A stretch of 40,618 nt of DNA from positions 1 through 40,618 of the IMG/VR virus record IMGVR_UViG_3300049060_000012. The stretch is one strand, 5' to 3'. This document shows, piece by piece, positions 2,948 through 33,432 of the stretch. The position numbers and the translations under genes are program-made. Source of the stretch: a virus. Lineage: Duplodnaviria > Caudoviricetes. The notes beneath the pieces are model-generated. The model was not told the DNA's origin, ran no database searches, and saw only the letters and a list, made by a program, of their open reading frames with translations. The number at the start of each line of letters is the position of its first letter. Positions within the stretch are counted from its first letter, which is position 1.

Positions 2948-3481
2948 TCAGCGCTCGATCAGCTTCGGCTTCGCGTAGGCGATGACATGGAACTGGTGCT
3001 CGCCCGTCACCTGCACGGTGTGAATATCGAAGCGCTCCCAGATCTTCGGCAGCCACCACTCCAGCGGCTGCTGTGTGAGATGCGCGTTGCGGCCGTCAGC
3101 GAGCACTTTCACCGCAGGCCCGGTGTGCACCGTGAGGAACGCGACGGCTTCGGTGAGCCGCGCGAGATCGTCGAGCACGTCGTCGAGAAATTCAGGCTCG
3201 ATGTGTTCAAGCACGTCGATGCACGCGACCATCTCTGCCGGTACGGGCGGCGTCGAGTACTGCGGCACGGCTGGATCGTATGCCTGCAGCGTCATCTTGT
3301 GATCCACCTTGAGATTCTGGAACAGTCGGCACTTCGCGCACCCGTAGTCGAGCAGATGCTGCACGCCGAGCCGGTTGCACATCTCCGAGACGAGCGGCGC
3401 GTACTGCACGGAAGCGACGCCGTAGTTGGGATTTTCGTGCAGCTGCTCTTGCTGGGCGCGGTAGGCGTCGGAGATGAGCAT
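2948..3481 (-). CDS. Class I SAM-dependent methyltransferase
   Basis: LLDYGCAK (motif I), AYDP, CIDVLEHI; ATG at 3481 preferred because it overlaps the upstream TGA (TGATG). Confidence 0.85.
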   Translation of the reverse strand: MLISDAYRAQQEQLHENPNYGVASVQYAPLVSEMCNRLGVQHLLDYGCAKCRLFQNLKVDHKMTLQAYDPAVPQYSTPPVPAEMVACIDVLEHIEPEFLDDVLDDLARLTEAVAFLTVHTGPAVKVLADGRNAHLTQQPLEWWLPKIWERFDIHTVQVTGEHQFHVIAYAKPKLIER

Positions 3482-3690
3482 CAGATGCACCTCGACGGAT
3501 CTCGTGAAAGCCAATACCTAAATTTGCGTCGCTTGCCTCCGTAGTTGCCCCAAGCAACGAACAGTCTCCAGCCGAAGAGATGTAGGGACACGTACCGTTC
3601 CCTGATTTTTGCTAGCGAGAGAACTCGCCCATACCCGAACAGGATAGGCATATCTTCAAAGCCTGCTCCCTCTGGAATATCGAGCCTCAT
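3481..3690 (-). CDS. 69-aa hypothetical microprotein (MRLDIPEG...)
   Basis: ATGA overlap with the GT stop at 3687-3690 and TGATG overlap with the methyltransferase start; visibly more AT-rich than neighbours. Confidence 0.55.
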   Translation of the reverse strand: MRLDIPEGAGFEDMPILFGYGRVLSLAKIRERYVSLHLFGWRLFVAWGNYGGKRRKFRYWLSRDPSRCI

Positions 3691-4331
3691 GATGCCCTCG
3701 CCACGTGCACCGAGCCGCCCATCAGCTCCGCATGCGACACCGAATGCAGCATGGATTTGTACGCCTCGTGAAACACTGAATCCTCGACGTTGCCCTTGGT
3801 CTCGCGCCAGATCGGAATACCCTTCGTGAAGTGGTACAGCTTCGCATCGAGTCCAGGCGGCTGATACCCTACCGCCTTGTTCCATTCTTTCGGGAATGCG
3901 CCAACCGCGCCGTGTTCTGCCCATTTGAAGTCGAGCAATCCGTTTTTGGGATTGTCGATGTACTCCGGCGTAAGCAGCGAGCACGCCGCGCAGTCAAACA
4001 GCATCGCCGAGGCCCACTCGAAGGGCTGCTGCTCATTGTTCACCAGCACCTGATAGATGCCGGTGTCGGTGCCGAACAGCTCCGCGATATCGCCGGTCAC
4101 GACCATGTCGGCATCCAGGAACAGCGCCTTGCCTTCGTAGCCGCACAGGTACGGGACTAGGAAGCGGCTGAAGGTGAACTCGGTCAATCCGCGCCGCTTG
4201 ATCGGCAGCGTCGAGAGCACCAGCGGCGTTATGCTGACCGCGCGAGAGGCATGGGCGATGATGCTATGCTGGAGGACGTTATAGGCGAGTGGCTGTCTGG
4301 GGTCGTAACCGATGAACACGCGCAAAATCAT
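3687..4331 (-). CDS. GT-A fold glycosyltransferase (GT8-like)
   Basis: VFIGYDPRQ start, TEFTFSRFLVP, DxD motif (FLDAD), EWN and LYHFTKGIP motifs. Confidence 0.85.
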   Translation of the reverse strand: MILRVFIGYDPRQPLAYNVLQHSIIAHASRAVSITPLVLSTLPIKRRGLTEFTFSRFLVPYLCGYEGKALFLDADMVVTGDIAELFGTDTGIYQVLVNNEQQPFEWASAMLFDCAACSLLTPEYIDNPKNGLLDFKWAEHGAVGAFPKEWNKAVGYQPPGLDAKLYHFTKGIPIWRETKGNVEDSVFHEAYKSMLHSVSHAELMGGSVHVARAS

Positions 4332-5792
4332 TCACATCGCTCCTAAGCGTAAATGCCCCGGCTGTTCTACCAGGGCGCCAGCCTTGGGTTCTATCCCCAA
4401 GGGGATCACGTTTCGCTGCCCATCCTGCAAGGCTAAATGGGTGTGGGGAGTTGGCTTCAGCAGCATCATGACTCGTTGAGTTGCTGCTTCAATTGTACGC
4501 CGCCAATCGCCAGCCCACATCACATGCTCGGCCGGATGGAACGGGATGCCGGCGTGGTACTTCCAACAATCCATCGGCCCGTGCATCGCGATCACTTTCG
4601 TGCCCAATGCACCAGCCAGATGCACAGCAGCAGTTGGCACCGCGACCACAAGATCGAGGGATGCCACCAGCGCCGCCGTGTCGTCGTAGTCGGCCGTGCG
4701 CGTCGCATACGGGTACTCATGCACCTTCGGATGTTGCTCATCGCCCTTGTACTGCAGCGAGACGAAATGCGCATCGAGCGCCAGCAGCGATTCCCACTGC
4801 TCGAGGCCGGCATGCCGGAATTTCTCACCGGTCTTCGGGATGCCGCCTGACCACGCGATACCGATCGCCGGCTTGCCTTTCTTCGCCCATAGCGAGCGCC
4901 ACATCTCGACCCGCTCTGCGTCCGCAGTCAGGTATGGCTGTTGCGGACAGTCGGCCGGGCTCTTGCGGAAGAACTCGGCGAGCTGGCCGATCGGGAACGA
5001 GGCGTCGATTGCCTGATCCTCCTTCGCCCACTTCAGGTGTTTCTTGTTACGCGTGCCGTAGACGGTGACTTGCGGGAATGAGCGCCGGTACAGCGTTTCA
5101 AGCCGCTTGTCGCACTCGACGATGACCTTGCGGCACACGCGCGCCGCGTCTTCGATCATCGAGGCAAAGCACACTTCATCGCCAATGCCCTGCTCCGCGT
5201 ACAGCACGACCGCCTGACCTGGCGTGCCGTCCCACTCGGGCTCGCCGCTGTACTGCACTTTCTTGCGCCAGTCGGTGCCGAGCGTGTTGCGGTAGTTCTT
5301 CCAGCCCTCCTCCCACTCACCGGCCGCGAGCTGGCAGAAGCCGAGATTCGATAGCGCGGTCTTCGACTGCGGGTCGAGCTTGAGCGCCTTTTCGATGTGC
5401 CGGCGCGCTTTCTCGAATTCGCCGTGGTCGATGCACATCGCCGCGAGGTTGCCGTAGCACATCACGCGTGTCGTTTCGCGATTGGTGATCGACAGCGCGC
5501 GGGCATACGCCCGCTCGGCATCGGCGCGCTTCCACAGGTCCTCGGCACAACGGCCGAAGTTCAGCCAGTTGCTGCCCTCGGTCGGCGCCATGTCCTTCAC
5601 GAGCTTGAACAGGTTGTACGCAACCGGCGTATTGCCTGCCTTCTCGTAGATGTGGGCCGCGATGCCGATCGCCCGCGGATCATCCGGGTGCTCGAGCATT
5701 TCCTTCTTGAGCAGATCCATCGCCTGATCGAGTTCGCCCTTGTCCCACAGGGCGACGCACTGGGTCAGCGTTTCAGCGTTTGCCGAGGTCAT
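4332..5792 (-). CDS. TPR-repeat + GT-B (GT9-like) glycosyltransferase
   Basis: N-terminal TPR-like helical repeats; YAEQGIGDEV, IGIAWSGG, FVSLQY and DYDDTAALVASLDLVVAVPTAAVHLAGALG motifs. Confidence 0.85.
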   Translation of the reverse strand: MTSANAETLTQCVALWDKGELDQAMDLLKKEMLEHPDDPRAIGIAAHIYEKAGNTPVAYNLFKLVKDMAPTEGSNWLNFGRCAEDLWKRADAERAYARALSITNRETTRVMCYGNLAAMCIDHGEFEKARRHIEKALKLDPQSKTALSNLGFCQLAAGEWEEGWKNYRNTLGTDWRKKVQYSGEPEWDGTPGQAVVLYAEQGIGDEVCFASMIEDAARVCRKVIVECDKRLETLYRRSFPQVTVYGTRNKKHLKWAKEDQAIDASFPIGQLAEFFRKSPADCPQQPYLTADAERVEMWRSLWAKKGKPAIGIAWSGGIPKTGEKFRHAGLEQWESLLALDAHFVSLQYKGDEQHPKVHEYPYATRTADYDDTAALVASLDLVVAVPTAAVHLAGALGTKVIAMHGPMDCWKYHAGIPFHPAEHVMWAGDWRRTIEAATQRVMMLLKPTPHTHLALQDGQRNVIPLGIEPKAGALVEQPGHLRLGAM

Positions 5793-6132
5793 GAACAATC
5801 GCCAGCTTCTTGCCTTCGTTCTTCTGCGTGCACTTTAGATACGGAAAATTCGTGTTGATCTCCTGCAACACGCGGTCGATGTGCCGCCCGTCCTCGACGT
5901 TGATTCCCTTCGCACGCATCTGGAGCATGAAGATCGGCGGAATCTTCGCGTACAGCCACCACGACTCTTTGATGCCCTTGTCAGTGAGTCCGTCGCGCGC
6001 CAGAGCCTTGTTGTAGTCGAGCAGCGCCTCAACGTCCTGCGTGCGATGGAACGTCACGTTACCGGTCGCCTCGTCGTACTCCATGTCGGTACGGATGCCG
6101 GTCTGAGGATCATACTCGAAGAACTCAGGCAA
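5773..6132 (-). CDS. Hypothetical phage protein downstream of MCP
   Basis: 119 aa; TTG start with GAGGA RBS; overlaps the next gene. Confidence 0.7.
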   Translation of the reverse strand: MPEFFEYDPQTGIRTDMEYDEATGNVTFHRTQDVEALLDYNKALARDGLTDKGIKESWWLYAKIPPIFMLQMRAKGINVEDGRHIDRVLQEINTNFPYLKCTQKNEGKKLAIVHDLGKR

Positions 6133-6235: not shown

Positions 6236-6264
6236 GAAAGAAGGGGGCAGGTTTCCCCGCCCCC
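6236..6264 (-). terminator. Intrinsic terminator after the MCP gene
   Basis: GGGGGCGGG-GAAA-CCTGCCCCC stem followed by TTCTTTC, just after the MCP stop. Confidence 0.75.
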
Positions 6265-6270
6265 ACTCCG

Positions 6271-8488
6271 TTACGAGATTGCCACGACCTTGGAATTTGC
6301 TTTCCAATTTCGTGCGACCAAGCACCATTCTCCGATCAGCTGGAACTTCTCGGCATCGCCCGTCTTCGCGAGCTTGCGCTTCTGGATCTTGCGCAGATAC
6401 CGAACGGCCCAGTAGTCGGGGTCCAGACACAGGACGACGCTGGACCGCATATAGCGATGCAGAATCACCTGGTGCTTGCCGAAGTCCGACACGTACACGT
6501 TCGCGGCGCCGATGATCGATGCCTGCGCGCTCTTGTCGACGTCGACAAAGCGAGTTGCGATACCGGTGAAGGTGTCGATGTACCCCTTGCCGATGGTGCC
6601 GGTCAGGATCACGCGCGGATCGCCACCGTCAGACCACGCTGCCTCCAGCGCGAAGTTGAGATCCGGCGCCGTGAGCGGCGCCAGCGTCGTGCCATCGGTC
6701 GGCGCTACGCCAGCCGTCCCGGAAGTCAGCGGCGCAGTCGTCGCCGATGCGGTCGTGGTCGACAGCACCACGTGCGAGGACTCCGCAGACGATGCGGTCG
6801 CATCGCCGATCCACGACTCCATGCCAGCCGTCGAGCGGCCCGTACCGGCGCCGCCGATCGTGCTGATGCCGTTCTGCGTGATGCGGGTTTCCATATCCAA
6901 ACCCCATCACCACTTGTGCTGGGCTCTTTATCCCAGCTCTGAGCTTTCACTCAGGATCGGACTATATCTTCGTCCTATTGCTAGGACGTCGCGCGCTCGT
7001 GGAGCTTCATAGCCCGTGGTGGGCCGTATGCTCTAGTCTCTACACCTTCACCGCATTACTGCGGCGCTTGGCTCGGGATTACCCGCGTTGGGCTTCCCCG
7101 AATTCACGCGATGTTTACTCGCTACTTACGCAGCGAGGGCGCAATATGTATTACGCTTCAGCTCGCGCATCTTCACCATAGCGCCGCGTGCGAGTTCGGA
7201 CTTGCGCCCGGCCTTGTTCACGGCCTCCAGGGTGTCGGATGCAAGGAAGTCCTTCGAGCTGATCTGCAGGTAGCTCGCGTACCGAGCCGGCGCGGTGAGT
7301 GACGCATACGAGGCGTCATCGCCTTCGATTCGGATGTTGGTGTTCGACGGCGCCGCGAGTTCCTGCGCGAGCCATTCGGTATAGGTCGCCGACGCGTCCT
7401 CGCGATCGAGGTTCGTCATCGCCCAGGTGTCCTCCGGAAAGAGGTCGAAGATTACCGATGTGTTATCGCGCGGCTCTTTATCCGCGCATCTGCAGCTCTC
7501 GCTGCAGTCCAGACTACATCTTCACCTGTCGGTGTCGGGGGCTCGTGGGGCTGTCATAGTCCGTTCTGGACCGTATGCCCTAGTCGTTGAACCTTCAACG
7601 CATTCCTGCGCTGCTTGGCTGCTGATTGCCCAATCCTTGCGATTGTTACCTTTCGGTACGCAAGGCTCTAAGGGGTTTCCAGCAATTCACCCGATTGCTT
7701 GTGGTGTTCCGCGAAATGACAGCGCTCGCAAAGTGCTCGACCGTTTAACGGGTCGTATCGTCCTTCAGGATATTCGGCAAACTCTTTCACATGATGTGCA
7801 TGCAGTCTGATTCGATGACCGCAGTGCCCGCACATGCTTCCTTGCTCTAATCCGCATCCTTCGCATTTCCAATCCGCTTTGGTGAGCACCGCAAGCCGCC
7901 AATCGTGGAAGGCTTTGCGTGACCTGCCTAGCTTATTTGCTGTCGAGATTCCGCCGCGCCAGTTTGGGTTTTTAGAGCCAATCTGTCGCCCGACACGAAC
8001 TCGACTCAGAGCCAGCCTATGCTCAGTCGTTTTTGGCTTGCCGCGCATTCTATCGCCGCGGCTGATACCGCTAATTCCATGCTCCTTAAGGCGCATGAAA
8101 ACGACAGTTTCGCCAACGCCGTAGTGCTGCGCGATCCGATCCATCGACAGCTCCTTATACAGATCAAGAAGCTCTGCCTTTGGCGGATCGAATCTGCGCT
8201 GCCTCTTGGAGTTCCTGATGCCCCAAGTGCGAAGCCGGTAGTACACAGCTTCCGGTGTTACTCCGTACCTTACGCCGATCTGCTTTCCGCTCATCTTCTT
8301 GATGAGCGAATCCAACTTCCCCCTAGTAAGGGATTGCCACTCTGCTTTCACTGTCTGAAGTTCCGCGCTAACGCCACTTCAGACTATTGTCCTCTATTCG
8401 AGAGGACTTATCAATCTGACAAGTCCTCGCGGATACCGCCTGCGGTACCTACGCCGACTGTCGTAGTCGTGCCTGAAATCACAGCCAT
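6271..8488 (-). CDS. Major capsid protein (SU10-like/DUF5309 type), spliced: join(8488-8414, 7455-7153, 6897-6271), 334 aa
   Basis: Exon 1 MAVISG...GGIREDLSD, exon 2 VIFDLFPEDTW...MRELKR, exon 3 DMETRITQN...VVAIS; exons are 75, 303 and 627 nt and join in frame; follows the scaffold gene with a GGAG RBS; YVSDFG and LAKTGDAEK motifs. Confidence 0.9.
6898..7152 (-). ncRNA. Group I intron 2 in MCP (255 nt, no homing endonuclease)
   Basis: Exon ends in U (CGT) and intron ends in G; P1 GCGUAAU/AUUGCGC with a U-G pair at the splice site; P10 CAUAUU pairs with the 3' exon GAUAUG; core GAAUUCGGGGAA, AAUCCCGAGCC, AGAGACUA, GAAGAUAUAGUC. Confidence 0.93.
7456..8413 (-). ncRNA. Group I intron 1 in MCP (958 nt) carrying an HNH ORF
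   Basis: Exon ends in GAT and intron ends ...CATCG; core GAAUUGCUGGAA, AAUCAGCAGCC, GUUCAACGACUA, GAAGAUGUAGUC at about 7690-7508; candidate P1 UCAGAU/GUCUGA; boundaries could shift by 1 nt. Confidence 0.9.
7668..8351 (-). CDS. Intron-encoded HNH homing endonuclease (two HTH-like repeats, NUMOD3-like segment, HNH)
   Basis: CEGCG...LHAHHVK...NGRALCERCH; NPNWRGG motif; C-terminus (SGELLETP) runs into intron P3/P4. Confidence 0.9.
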   Translation of the reverse strand: MKAEWQSLTRGKLDSLIKKMSGKQIGVRYGVTPEAVYYRLRTWGIRNSKRQRRFDPPKAELLDLYKELSMDRIAQHYGVGETVVFMRLKEHGISGISRGDRMRGKPKTTEHRLALSRVRVGRQIGSKNPNWRGGISTANKLGRSRKAFHDWRLAVLTKADWKCEGCGLEQGSMCGHCGHRIRLHAHHVKEFAEYPEGRYDPLNGRALCERCHFAEHHKQSGELLETP

Positions 8489-8497
8489 TTGCTGCTC

Positions 8498-9394
8498 CTA
8501 GAATCGGTTCATCAGCTCGCGCTCTATGGCCTTCGCCTTCTGCGCGGAGCTGAGCCCCGGATTGTTCAGTTGCTTCTTCAGGGCGAGCTTGTCCTTCACC
8601 TGCTGCGGCATCGGGTTAGATGAGCCCGGCTTCACAGTCGGTGCGATCTGCACCTTGCCCTGGACTTTCTGAGCCTGGAGCTTGTCGTACTGCTGCGCCT
8701 TCCAGATGGTCTTCACCATCCGCGGGTCAGCCAGCGTATCGATCTCGGCAGCGGTGTAGCCCTCGTTCAGCGCGTATTCGCGCATCGCGGCTTTCGCTTC
8801 CGGTCCCCAGCCCTTGATGGATTTCGCGACAGCTTCCTGCGCCTTGCTCTGCGCCTCGTTGGCGAGTGCAATTTGCTCCTGCTGCCACGTGTTCCATTTG
8901 GAGTTGACGTTGCGGCTCAGTCCTTCGCGTTCTTCCTTCAGGTTGTCGACTTGCGTCTTCACCTGCCACAGCTGCTCGGAGGTCATGCCGGTTACATCGA
9001 TCAATTTCCACTGCTTGATGCTGAAATCGATTTCCTGCATCCGGGCGATGTCGTCCTTCACGGCTGCGTTGAACTTACGCTCGGACTCGAACGCCTTGTA
9101 CGCCAACTGCTGCTGCTCGATGGCCTTCTTCTGTTCCGCCACCTCAGTCGTCTTACGCGTGTAATCGGACTGCGCCATGAGCGCATCTTTCAGCTCTGGC
9201 GGGACCTGGTACGTCTTGCCGTTGAACTCGGTCTCGACGAATTCCGGGGTCGGCGTTTCCGATTCCGGCTCAGGAGTGTTGTCCACCTGCTCCGGTTGTT
9301 CGGGCTGCTGCGTCTCAGGCTGATCCGTCTCGAACTGTGCGGCCAATCGATCTTCCATCGATGGCGATTCCATTGCTGGCTGTTCGCCTGCCAT
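8498..9394 (-). CDS. Scaffolding protein
   Basis: Acidic N-terminus, DYTRKT motif, coiled coil; lies immediately before MCP. Confidence 0.85.
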   Translation of the reverse strand: MAGEQPAMESPSMEDRLAAQFETDQPETQQPEQPEQVDNTPEPESETPTPEFVETEFNGKTYQVPPELKDALMAQSDYTRKTTEVAEQKKAIEQQQLAYKAFESERKFNAAVKDDIARMQEIDFSIKQWKLIDVTGMTSEQLWQVKTQVDNLKEEREGLSRNVNSKWNTWQQEQIALANEAQSKAQEAVAKSIKGWGPEAKAAMREYALNEGYTAAEIDTLADPRMVKTIWKAQQYDKLQAQKVQGKVQIAPTVKPGSSNPMPQQVKDKLALKKQLNNPGLSSAQKAKAIERELMNRF

Positions 9395-32067: not shown

Positions 32068-32442
32068 ATGCACGCGATCGACGAAAAGGAGTACCTGACC
32101 GTGAAGGAGGCCGCGAGCTTTTGCGGCATCTCCTATAGCCATTGGCGGGCGTTCGTGCAGAAGGAGTTCCCTCCGGGGCTGTTCAAGGGCAGACTCATCT
32201 ACCGCCGGGCCGACGTTCAACGCTACGTAGAGAAAAACACACGGTGGCCACAATCTACCCGCGCGGAGATTCCTGGTACCTCAACTGGTCGGAGAACGGC
32301 CAGCAGCAGCGCAAGTCACTTGGCGCGATCTCAGAGCATGACGCCGAGGTCGCGCGCAAGACCAAGGAATACGAGCTTGCGACTGGTCGACGGATCTTCA
32401 CCGCCTCCACCGGATTCGACGAACACCTCGAGCGGTACCTGA
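32068..32442 (+). CDS. xis: Excisionase-like HTH protein overlapping int
   Basis: YLTVKEAASFCGIS...GRLIYRRADV; directly upstream of int and overlaps it by about 200 nt. Confidence 0.7.
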   Translation: MHAIDEKEYLTVKEAASFCGISYSHWRAFVQKEFPPGLFKGRLIYRRADVQRYVEKNTRWPQSTRAEIPGTSTGRRTASSSASHLARSQSMTPRSRARPRNTSLRLVDGSSPPPPDSTNTSSGT

Positions 32443-33227
32443 CATGGCATCGCTCCGAATACCCGGACAGCCACTATCGCGTGCAGCAGATCGCCGAGCA
32501 GCACTTTGGAGACTTCCATGGCGTGGCGCTATCGCAGATCACGCCCGGGCAAATCGAGAAGTGGAAGACCGGCCGGCTATCGGTCGTGGCGCGCGGGACG
32601 GTGGCGAAGGAAGTTCGAACACTCAAGGCGGTGCTTTCGAAGGCGGTCGAGTGGGAAGAGATCGAGCGCAACCCGGGCGACAAGGTCGAGCAACCGCGGA
32701 ACCTCGACGACGAGCCGATCCACTGGTATTCGAAGGACGAGCTCGCTCTACTCTACAAGCGCCCGCACGGCCCTACTTGGCGGCTGATGGCCAACACCGG
32801 CATGCGGCGAAACGAGGCCCGGCAGCTGAGGGTGTCCCGGGTCGACCTGAGCGCCGGTCACGTCGACGTCGTGTCATCAACGGAGGCGCGAACGAAGTCC
32901 GGCCGCTGGCGCCGGATCCCGCTGTCACAGGCTGCGATCGAGGCCGCGGAGGTGCTGATATCGCTCTACGGCAGCACAGGCTACGTGCTGCCCCGTATCA
33001 CGGCGCCGAGCCTCTCCCGGGCGTTTGCGCACGACTGCGCGGCTCTGGGACTGTCAGGGAGCCTGCACAGTCTGCGACACTCCTACGGCGCCCATATGGT
33101 CATGGCGGGCGTGCCGCTGCGGTCACTCCAGGTGCTCATGGGCCACGCCAGCTTCAAGACTACCGAGCGGTACGCACACATCGGCGAGGATCATCTGAAA
33201 GCGCAGGCGCGGCTGGTCAATCTGTAG
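32244..33227 (+). CDS. int: Tyrosine integrase
   Basis: Catalytic R (TGMRRNE), K (TKSG), HSLRH, MGH and Y (TERYAH); GTG start at 32244 is inferred. Confidence 0.95.
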   Translation: MATIYPRGDSWYLNWSENGQQQRKSLGAISEHDAEVARKTKEYELATGRRIFTASTGFDEHLERYLTWHRSEYPDSHYRVQQIAEQHFGDFHGVALSQITPGQIEKWKTGRLSVVARGTVAKEVRTLKAVLSKAVEWEEIERNPGDKVEQPRNLDDEPIHWYSKDELALLYKRPHGPTWRLMANTGMRRNEARQLRVSRVDLSAGHVDVVSSTEARTKSGRWRRIPLSQAAIEAAEVLISLYGSTGYVLPRITAPSLSRAFAHDCAALGLSGSLHSLRHSYGAHMVMAGVPLRSLQVLMGHASFKTTERYAHIGEDHLKAQARLVNL

Positions 33228-33432
33228 CTGTGTTGCTGTGCTACGTAAGCAGCACAACTAGGCGCTTTAAAGCACAGGTGTGCTGCGAATCGACCAGCGC
33301 GGCCGCGCTTAAGTGCTTGAAAATATGGCGTCCCCATGGGGATTCGAACCCCAGTTACCGCCGTGAAAGGGCGCTTGTTTCACGATTATCCACAGGTACT
33401 TGCGAAGGTGCCTGTGCTGTTTCTGTGCTGCC
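33228..33432. promoter_or_regulatory. attP arms: repeated TGTGCT-type arm sites and an IHF-like site
   Basis: TGTG(C/T)T/AGCACA repeats at 33229-33295; tandem CTGTGCTG at 33412-33430; TTTCAAGCACTTA (minus strand, 33310-33322) is one mismatch from WATCAANNNNTTR. Confidence 0.6.
33326..33373 (-). other. attP core: 48-bp 3' half of tRNA-Glu(TTC), including CCA
   Basis: Minus strand reads CGCCCTTTCACGGCGGTAACTGGGGTTCGAATCCCCATGGGGACGCCA; 5' half absent; about 100 bp after int; phage genes on both sides. Confidence 0.92.

What the first reader, a model, noticed from the sequence alone, without database searches (positions are those of the whole stretch)
6271..8488. Major capsid gene split into three exons by two group I introns
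Seen: no intact MCP ORF exists, but removing 8413-7456 and 7152-6898 gives ...IREDLSD|VIFDLFP... and ...ELKR|DMETR..., a 334-aa protein. Both inserts follow a U, end in G and contain the P4/P6/P7 core motifs. Established: classic phage group I introns sit mostly in DNA-metabolism genes (td, nrd, polymerase). Inference: the most abundant virion protein of this small temperate phage needs two self-splicing events, and standard gene callers would misannotate it as fragments.
Basis: partly seen in the sequence, partly recalled or inferred. Interest (0 to 1): 0.85.

Follow-up and report, generated by a model that had tools for sequence, protein, structure and literature searches.

The report
Phage capsid gene with two introns
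The only major capsid gene of an uncultured, likely temperate soil phage is cut into three pieces by two group I introns that are predicted to splice themselves out; this arrangement is already known from other phages, but the first intron belongs to a widespread family at one capsid site whose guide sequence likely also helps hide the start of the intron's own DNA-cutting gene.

Summary
Observation confirmed. Both inserts (8413-7456, 7152-6898) match RF00028 (63 and 73 bits). Removing them gives a 334-aa SU10-family capsid protein, 97% identical and gap-free to an intron-less allele; 106 of 106 full-length homologues are gap-free at both junctions. The exons look alive, and DNA contigs lacking either intron exist. 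Intron 1 carries an intact HNH gene. Its site (D25|V26) is interrupted in 35 of 38 pattern-matched viral loci, 22 with a related HNH. Splicing itself is untested; no RNA run was listed. The arrangement is not new in kind: LittleE, Tuc2009 and crAss-like capsid genes are published, and this scan noted capsid genes with 4-6 introns on other DNA. A hairpin pairs the guide sequence with the HNH start region until a long-range P2 replaces it (13 of 16 closed, then 14 of 16 open, against 35% and 23% in shuffles). In intron 1 a 12-bp exon hairpin would also need a ribosome to open it. New member of a known kind; interest 0.4.

The parts
8414..8488 (-). Exon 1 of the SU10-family major capsid gene (codons 1-25), ends in U
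7456..8413 (-). Group I intron 1, 958 nt, at D25|V26; opens with two in-frame stops, ends in G
   Evidence: same-site family
8402..8428 (-). Predicted hairpin H1: exon 8428-8417 pairs 12 bp with intron 8413-8402 and competes with P1
   Evidence: similar 12-bp exon pairing in L116
8389..8407 (-). P1-loop hairpin (P1a), mutually exclusive with H1
   Evidence: like hairpins in relatives
8379..8384 (-). Internal guide sequence of intron 1 (6-bp P1 with U.G at the splice site)
8353..8384 (-). Predicted hairpin H2: guide sequence paired 9 bp with the stretch ending 2 nt before the HNH start codon
8361..8377 (-). 5' arm of long-range P2 that encloses the HNH gene
   Evidence: (p about 0.95)
7701..7716 (-). 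3' arm of long-range P2
7668..8351 (-). HNH endonuclease ORF (227 aa, GTG start, N-terminal HTH); its last codons run into P3/P4 of the ribozyme core
7490..7740 (-). RF00028 match: catalytic core of intron 1 (P7 strands about 7587-7581 and 7516-7511)
7153..7455 (-). Exon 2 (codons 26-126), ends in U
6898..7152 (-). Group I intron 2, 255 nt, ORF-less, at R126|D127; in-frame stop at its ninth codon; ends in G
7139..7148 (-). Guide sequence of intron 2: P1 (p 0.99) and a 6-bp P10 with the first six bases of exon 3
   Evidence: P10 read from the sequence
6878..6910 (-). Predicted hairpin of the intron-2 tail (6910-6899) with exon 3 (6890-6878), 12 bp with one bulge; the 3' splice site lies in its 8-nt loop
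6271..6897 (-). Exon 3 (codons 127-334 and stop)
6244..6263 (-). Terminator-like GC hairpin followed by a U-rich run after the capsid gene
   Evidence: seen, located; not scored

Best explanation
The phage's only major capsid gene is interrupted by two group I introns that likely splice themselves out of the late mRNA to restore a normal 334-aa capsid protein; intron 1 is likely a mobile element spread by its own HNH homing endonuclease, and intron 2 is an ORF-less relative. SHOWN: the inserts, their boundaries, core pairings, the restored protein, intron-less alleles, and a same-site family with related HNH genes. INFERRED from established group I chemistry: free G bound in P7 cuts after the exon U held in P1, then the exon end attacks after the terminal G. 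INFERRED: the introns persist because they sit in the two most conserved capsid motifs, where only exact loss is tolerated. PREDICTED by folding: while the HNH gene is being transcribed, hairpin H2 holds the guide sequence against the HNH start region, which would keep ribosomes from running into the core. The long-range P2 then replaces H2, keeps much of that region paired and frees the guide. A ribosome that translates exon 1 and stops at the in-frame stop would melt the rival exon hairpin H1 so that P1 can form, like the ribosome-as-chaperone effect described for T4 introns.
For: CM hits over cut-off. Across 10 capsid introns P3, P4, P6 and P7 pair in 67/70, 56/60, 20/20 and 60/60 cells, with two-sided changes at 4/7, 4/6, 0/2 and 3/6 positions (helices placed by motif anchors, not by an independent alignment). 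Gap-free junctions in 106/106, and D25 and K125-R126-D127 are invariant. Against intron-less L002: 121 synonymous-only and 34 amino-acid codon changes, no stops. DNA contigs join across intron 2 (X4, X5) and intron 1 (X10), and intron 1 recurs nearly unchanged in X4 and X5. Same site in 35/38 loci, RF00028 in 32/38, HNH homologues of 35-50% in 22/36. Full-length window folds: H2 about 1.0 until 7720, 0.0 at 7700; P1 0.995 only with the upstream exon held open. Family folds with the exon held open: P1<0.1 before P2 in 13/16, >0.5 after in 14/16, against 223/640 and 150/640 in shuffles; ORF-less members have P1>0.98 in 4/5.
Against: No spliced RNA was seen. In naked-RNA folds P1 of intron 1 is the minor form (p 0.00-0.19; 3.2 kcal/mol above H1 in a shortened construct), so splicing could be slow. 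Intron 1 has only a weak P10 by eye. H1 is clear in only the window and L116 among 26 distinct 5' ends where a guide was picked (L097 is borderline, 1/300 shuffles), so the family does not need it. The relay fails in L102, L107 and L120 (P1 not closed early); L103 and L113 were mis-assigned (their guide lies after the ORF). Family folds used shortened constructs that favour P2, the members are related (L090 and L122 nearly identical), and holding an exon open raises P1 in any model. The Shine-Dalgarno window was paired >0.6 in only 10/16 nascent folds.
Confidence: 0.85

Rival explanations
1. The introns splice, but H1, H2 and the intron-2 tail hairpin are neutral by-products: inverted copies of neighbouring exon left by replication template switching, a relic guide for the site 9 nt upstream (D22|L23), or chance pairing of a pyrimidine-rich guide with any G-rich ribosome-binding site.
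For: H1 extends to 15-17 of 20 positions as an inverted copy of the exon and has the register that a guide for D22|L23 would need; L038 has a 35-nt guide-like insert at that site. H1 is rare in the family. Shuffle controls close P1 in 35% of cases anyway. No same-site homologue of intron 2 was found to test its tail.
Against: H2 survives a change of the guide: the window's guide follows an A at exon -3 where all other members have G, and the 3' arm changed with it (window control 1/40). Guide pairing is higher in ORF-bearing than ORF-less members (median 0.97 vs 0.61, P 0.004, related sequences). H1 in the window and L116 each follows its own exon codons. H1 and the tail duplex beat 0/2000 and 1/2000 shuffles.
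Confidence: 0.45
2. The gene is dead or dying: at least one intron no longer splices well because H1 or the tail hairpin blocks a splice site, and the phage is defective.
For: P1 of intron 1 is the minor predicted fold. The tail hairpin pairs the two bases before the terminal G that P9.0 needs.
Against: No stops or frameshifts in the exons and mainly synonymous change. Core pairs intact. Portal, terminase and scaffold are open frames. Intron 1 sequence recurs with 0-4 differences in contigs of runs from other studies (X2-X7, X10); X1 may be the source itself and the 2025 studies may be one campaign.
Confidence: 0.06
3. Cross-splicing between the two introns skips exon 2 in frame (303 nt, both phase 0) and makes a shorter capsid-derived protein that has a role, as exon skipping was reported for phage Twort.
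For: Frame arithmetic; cores 73% identical over 166 nt; Twort precedent as cited in PMC3073962 (passage).
Against: P3, P4 and P7 differ between the two introns by compensatory changes, so mixed cores would mispair. Exon 2 holds many invariant capsid residues.
Confidence: 0.05
4. Assembly artefact or chimera.
For: The window is a single metagenomic virus record.
Against: One X1 contig spans the whole stretch without differences (possible source). Contigs from other runs bridge the junctions: X2 6886-7036, 7026-7386, 7412-7562 and 8392-8730; X4 7309-8800.
Confidence: 0.01

Closest known systems
Mycobacteriophage LittleE capsid intron, and Tuc2009 capsid intron as cited there (PMC3706429; passages read)
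   Same: Intron in the major capsid gene of a temperate phage, U before and G at the end, carrying an endonuclease gene, with intron-less relatives; splicing shown by RT-PCR for LittleE.
   Different: One intron, of unclear type, with the ORF on the opposite strand. Here there are two CM-positive introns, a sense HNH inside P2, and an SU10-type capsid.
crAss-like Delta and Zeta capsid genes with group I introns (PMC7886860; passages read)
   Same: Several group I introns in one major capsid gene (one MCP in five fragments); annotation breaks down.
   Different: Larger gut phages of another lineage with up to 14 introns per genome; no intron-level RNA analysis in the passages read. This 40-kb genome has just two RF00028 hits.
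T4 td intron with I-TevI (PMC3073962 and PMC2988022, passages; PMC3984707, passages and section 11)
   Same: ORF runs into the ribozyme core; a hairpin hides the endonuclease ribosome-binding site and is needed for good splicing; in-frame stop after the 5' splice site; ribosome on the upstream exon acts as a chaperone.
   Different: GIY-YIG gene in P6 of a DNA-metabolism gene. In the passages read the hairpin is not said to use the guide sequence or to hand over to a long-range helix, as predicted here.
Staphylococcus phage Twort gene with three group I introns (known only through PMC3073962; PMC22036 not held)
   Same: More than one group I intron in one phage gene.
   Different: Three similar introns with shown exon skipping; here two introns about 66% alike in the core.

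Membership tests
Group I intron | Covariance-model match to the P3-P9 core | tested here: met
   RF00028 63.4 and 73.1 bits, cut-off 50
Group I intron | P3, P4, P6, P7 pairings with a G-C pair and a bulged base at the G site | tested here: met
   intron 1 has one U.C mismatch in P3
Group I intron | Exon U paired with a guide G in P1 | tested here: met
   Intron 2 p 0.96-0.99. Intron 1: a 6-bp P1 exists but forms only when rival hairpins are opened
Group I intron | Terminal G before the 3' exon | tested here: met
Group I intron | P10 with the 3' exon | tested here: inconclusive
   6 bp for intron 2, weak and interrupted for intron 1; read by eye
Group I intron | G-dependent self-splicing | not testable with these tools
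   needs RNA; none on hand
Group I subgroup IA2 (phage type) | Subgroup model match; P7.1 and P7.2 | not tested
   No subgroup models on hand. One extra helix follows the P7 5' strand, which I recall as IA-like; the label is recalled, not tested
Intron-encoded HNH homing endonuclease | Intact HNH domain in an intron loop | tested here: met
   PF01844 positions 1-47/47, 29.2 bits; inside P2; 48 of 61 relatives end in or at core-encoded peptides
Intron-encoded HNH homing endonuclease | Tied to one insertion site, with empty alleles available | tested here: met
   22 of 36 same-site loci carry a homologue; empty alleles. The loci were picked by site, so other host genes were not surveyed
Intron-encoded HNH homing endonuclease | Cuts or nicks the intron-less allele and drives homing | not testable with these tools
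   needs an assay
SU10-type major capsid protein (PF17236) | Profile match and head-gene context | tested here: met
   PF17236 on exons 2 and 3, SU10 portal and adaptor nearby; solved capsids 9ny2 and 7z45 at E 1e-50 and 5e-21

The most novel reading that the evidence does not exclude
A widespread, apparently undescribed family of capsid-site introns uses its internal guide sequence as one arm of a switch. The guide first locks the ribosome-binding region of the intron's own endonuclease gene, is released only when the helix closing that gene has been transcribed, and in this phage must also wait for a ribosome on the 25-codon first exon to melt an evolved anti-splice-site hairpin. Capsid output would then be gated by transcription and translation together, with a second exon-pairing hairpin guarding the last splice site.
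Probability: 0.3. Interest if true: 0.65.

Novelty: new member of a known kind. Interest (0 to 1): 0.4.

Why it matters
It adds the small SU10-type phages to the lineages whose capsid gene is an intron target. One site is occupied in at least 15 distinct capsid backgrounds and eight or more neighbouring sites are used, so such genes are mis-called in databases (C72C1). This weakens the view that phage group I introns favour DNA-metabolism genes (stated as an apparent, unexplained preference in PMC12350094). If the fold relay holds, it gives a compact, testable answer to how an intron with an ORF upstream of its core keeps ribosomes out during coupled transcription and translation of a highly expressed gene.

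Tried and rejected
No RNA holder listed among 20 runs, so expression and splicing could not be looked at. A pattern for 3' ends of same-site intron-1 copies before a close-family exon found 0 viral loci. A pattern for intron-2's site found 10 loci: 2 capsid genes with introns at other sites and 8 with no capsid match. A general pattern for short inserts in the N-terminal motif found 13 loci, 12 unrelated and 1 the L038 contig again. The HNH query in viral contigs gave one 13-residue match with no intron. The first guide-sequence picker was faulty, often taking the P2 arm; its folding columns were discarded and redone, where 3 of 29 distinct 5' ends had no guide motif. In one search the script took the wrong core for L111 and L123; their late guide is read by eye. 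The core tree had no well-supported branch, so no direction of transfer is claimed. The ATG at 8291 as HNH start was rejected because the two closest homologues are 227 aa and align from the GTG. Host not identified: capsid relatives sit in bins of five or more unrelated phyla. Look-ups of earlier notes by sequence and place found nothing. Searches that found no paper on introns in this capsid family or on a guide/ribosome-binding-site hairpin: 0 papers; 9 listed, none on topic by title and abstract start; 1 paper, unrelated in passages; most subscription papers and all supplements were not seen, and intron tables in supplements could list these sites.

Full report
OBSERVATION. On the minus strand the capsid gene has exons 8488-8414, 7455-7153 and 6897-6271, separated by inserts of 958 and 255 nt. 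Both inserts are in phase 0, follow a U and end in G; the joined frame is 334 aa with one terminal stop. Both match RF00028 above the curated cut-off, 63.4 and 73.1 bits. Exons 2 and 3 cover abutting parts of Pfam SU10_MCP, 17-118 and 119-289. The spliced protein is 97% identical and gap-free to intact P0001, and none of 106 full-length homologues (of 120 listed; 14 shorter ones left out) has a gap within 8 residues of either junction. There is no second capsid gene. The record is a 40,618-nt virus record estimated complete, with only these two RF00028 hits.

CONTEXT. The gene lies downstream of terminase, SU10 portal and a scaffold-like ORF, and upstream of an SU10 adaptor. An integrase sits beside a tRNA-Glu, which suggests a temperate phage. 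A profile of 43 homologues hits solved capsids 9ny2 and 7z45. Runs holding the stretch are labelled soil metagenome, bar two low-share rows. The host is unknown. Against intron-less L002 the exons show 121 synonymous-only and 34 amino-acid codon changes and no stops, so the gene looks alive.

THE INTRONS. Across ten capsid introns, P3, P4, P6 and P7 pair in 67/70, 56/60, 20/20 and 60/60 cells, with two-sided changes at 11 of 21 positions (helices placed by motif anchors). Intron 2 has P1 at p 0.99, a 6-bp P10 by eye, and an in-frame stop at its ninth codon. Intron 1 opens with two in-frame stops and carries a 227-aa HNH gene inside a long-range P2; its last codons overlap P3/P4. Of 61 HNH relatives, 48 end in or at core-encoded peptides, so this is largely an intron-borne family. 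The two cores are 66% alike, with compensatory differences, so they are not a recent duplication.

DISTRIBUTION. Both sites lie in near-invariant motifs. A pattern for 'motif plus in-frame stop at D25' gave 38 viral loci. In 35 the capsid resumes near residue 26 after roughly 250-1000 nt (2 are cut off, 1 is not a capsid), 32 have RF00028 over cut-off, and 22 of 36 carry an HNH homologue at 35-50% identity. Their capsids are only 32-45% like P0001 and fall into 15 clusters at 90% among the 29 that could be read. Other sites are used too: D29|L30 (L087), L30 phase 2 (L039), D34|T35 (L038, L081), near 62 and 121 plus an N-terminal one (L057), L124 phase 2 (L056) and near 114 (GenBank phage C72C1, annotated as fragments). 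Among close relatives picked by the capsid alone, 2 of 50 had introns. In sequencing runs, DNA contigs join across intron 2 (X4, X5) and intron 1 (X10); X4 and X5 hold intron 1 with 2-4 differences and a further 776-nt insert in exon 3. Whether those contigs are one genome is not shown. Patchy presence among near relatives with a shared site across distant ones fits homing; homing itself is inferred.

PREDICTED FOLD RELAY. Three extra hairpins stood out. H2 pairs the guide of intron 1 with the nine bases ending 2 nt before the HNH start. In folds of growing window transcripts H2 is about 1.0 until 7720 and 0.0 at 7700, when P2 closes. In the family, with the upstream exon held open, P1 is below 0.1 before P2 in 13 of 16 HNH-bearing introns and above 0.5 after it in 14 of 16; shuffles give 223/640 and 150/640, and ORF-less members have P1 above 0.98 in 4 of 5. 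The two that fail after P2 (L103, L113) have their true guide behind the ORF; without them the counts are 11 and 14 of 14, against 150/560 and 149/560. L102, L107 and L120 do not close early. These are related sequences and shortened constructs. H1 pairs the first 12 intron bases with exon 1 (-21.2 kcal/mol; 0 of 2000 shuffles; the nine other full introns gave -2 to -10) and makes P1 the minor form unless the exon is held open (0.00-0.19 against 0.995). It recurs clearly only in L116, the closest HNH relative, where it follows that exon's own codons. The tail of intron 2 pairs 12 bp with exon 3 (-18.5; 1 of 2000 shuffles) and puts the 3' splice site in a loop; no same-site homologue was found to test it.

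MECHANISM. Shown: anatomy and distribution. Inferred from established chemistry (PMC3984707, passages): two-step G-dependent splicing of each intron, 0.9; HNH-driven homing of intron 1, 0.75. Predicted: H2 keeps ribosomes off the HNH start until P2 takes over, about 0.5; the ribosome stopping at the first intron codon melts H1, about 0.4. [quoted passage not shown] The chief rival is that the hairpins are neutral relics. H1 has the register of a guide for D22|L23, the site where L038 has a 35-nt guide-like insert without a core.

COMPARISON AND VERDICT. Introns in phage capsid genes are published: LittleE with RT-PCR proof and Tuc2009 as cited (PMC3706429, passages), and a crAss-like MCP in five fragments (PMC7886860, passages). 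Earlier notes of this scan, which I did not test, list capsid genes with four to six introns and core-less mini-introns on other DNA. I found no paper on introns in SU10/DUF5309 capsids or on a guide sequence hiding the endonuclease start (open-access library only, supplements unseen; PMC12350094, PMC11855218 and PMC10580990 read as passages; PMC3160393 seen as a listing). The finding is real and exact, and is a new member of a known kind. The family at D25 and the predicted relay are what lift it above routine: interest 0.4.

Noticed in passing
L038 2554-2588 (same contig as L065): 35-nt insert with an in-frame stop at D22|L23 of an SU10-type capsid gene. It follows a U, ends in G, has P1 with U.G (p 0.84) and a 6-bp P10 but no core, and lies 36 nt before a full group I intron. 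L081 has the same full intron without it. Candidate core-less mini-intron; rivals are ribosome bypassing, restart at an in-frame ATG, or a dead relic.
   Followed up: partly
window 6486-6491 (contigs of runs X4, X5, X10): Near relatives carry a third insert, 776 nt in X4, in exon 3 near residue 262; the loose ends in X5 read as starting with TAA and ending in G on the coding strand. Full sequence not available.
   Followed up: partly
L057 395-647, 826-1020 and RF00028 match 1216-1439: SU10-type capsid gene with three ORF-less group I introns; one has a P2 nearly identical to window intron 2 but sits 15 nt upstream of its site.
   Followed up: partly
L064 1820-2070 (GenBank OQ984150.1, phage C72C1): Group I intron (81.8 bits) in the capsid gene, annotated as two head-protein CDS and three antisense hypothetical proteins.
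   Followed up: yes
L103, L108, L113, L089/L088, L109: At the same D25 site some members place the guide sequence after the HNH gene, just before P3, so the ORF lies in the P1 loop instead of P2; L103 and L113 still keep an early hairpin over the HNH start region.
   Followed up: partly
L038, L039, L081, L087: Sibling introns with a different HNH-like ORF in P8 sit at three sites within 15 nt (D29|L30, L30 phase 2, D34|T35), which suggests short-range site shifts. L081 lacks most of the 3' helices.
   Followed up: partly
L093, L119: ORF-deleted copies of the L122/L090 intron that keep the HNH start and end and the H2 hairpin.
   Followed up: partly
L056 intron (3446-2516, minus strand): Besides an HNH-like ORF in the 5' part, the helix after P7 is replaced by about 160 nt of cysteine-rich coding-like sequence.
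   Followed up: no
L106, L116: tblastn pieces suggest further interruptions in these capsid genes (L106 resumes at residue 46; L116 breaks between 123 and 138).
   Followed up: no
window 8287-8309: Strong hairpin covering the in-frame ATG at 8291 inside the HNH gene; may block internal starts.
   Followed up: no
window 2948-5798: Glycosyltransferase family 8, a TPR protein and an ORF with a methyltransferase-like look (recalled motif, no Pfam hit) sit between the capsid and adaptor genes; possible virion glycosylation module.
   Followed up: no
window 32142-33227 and 33326-33399: Tyrosine integrase beside a tRNA-Glu(TTC) on the opposite strand; likely attachment site.
   Followed up: partly
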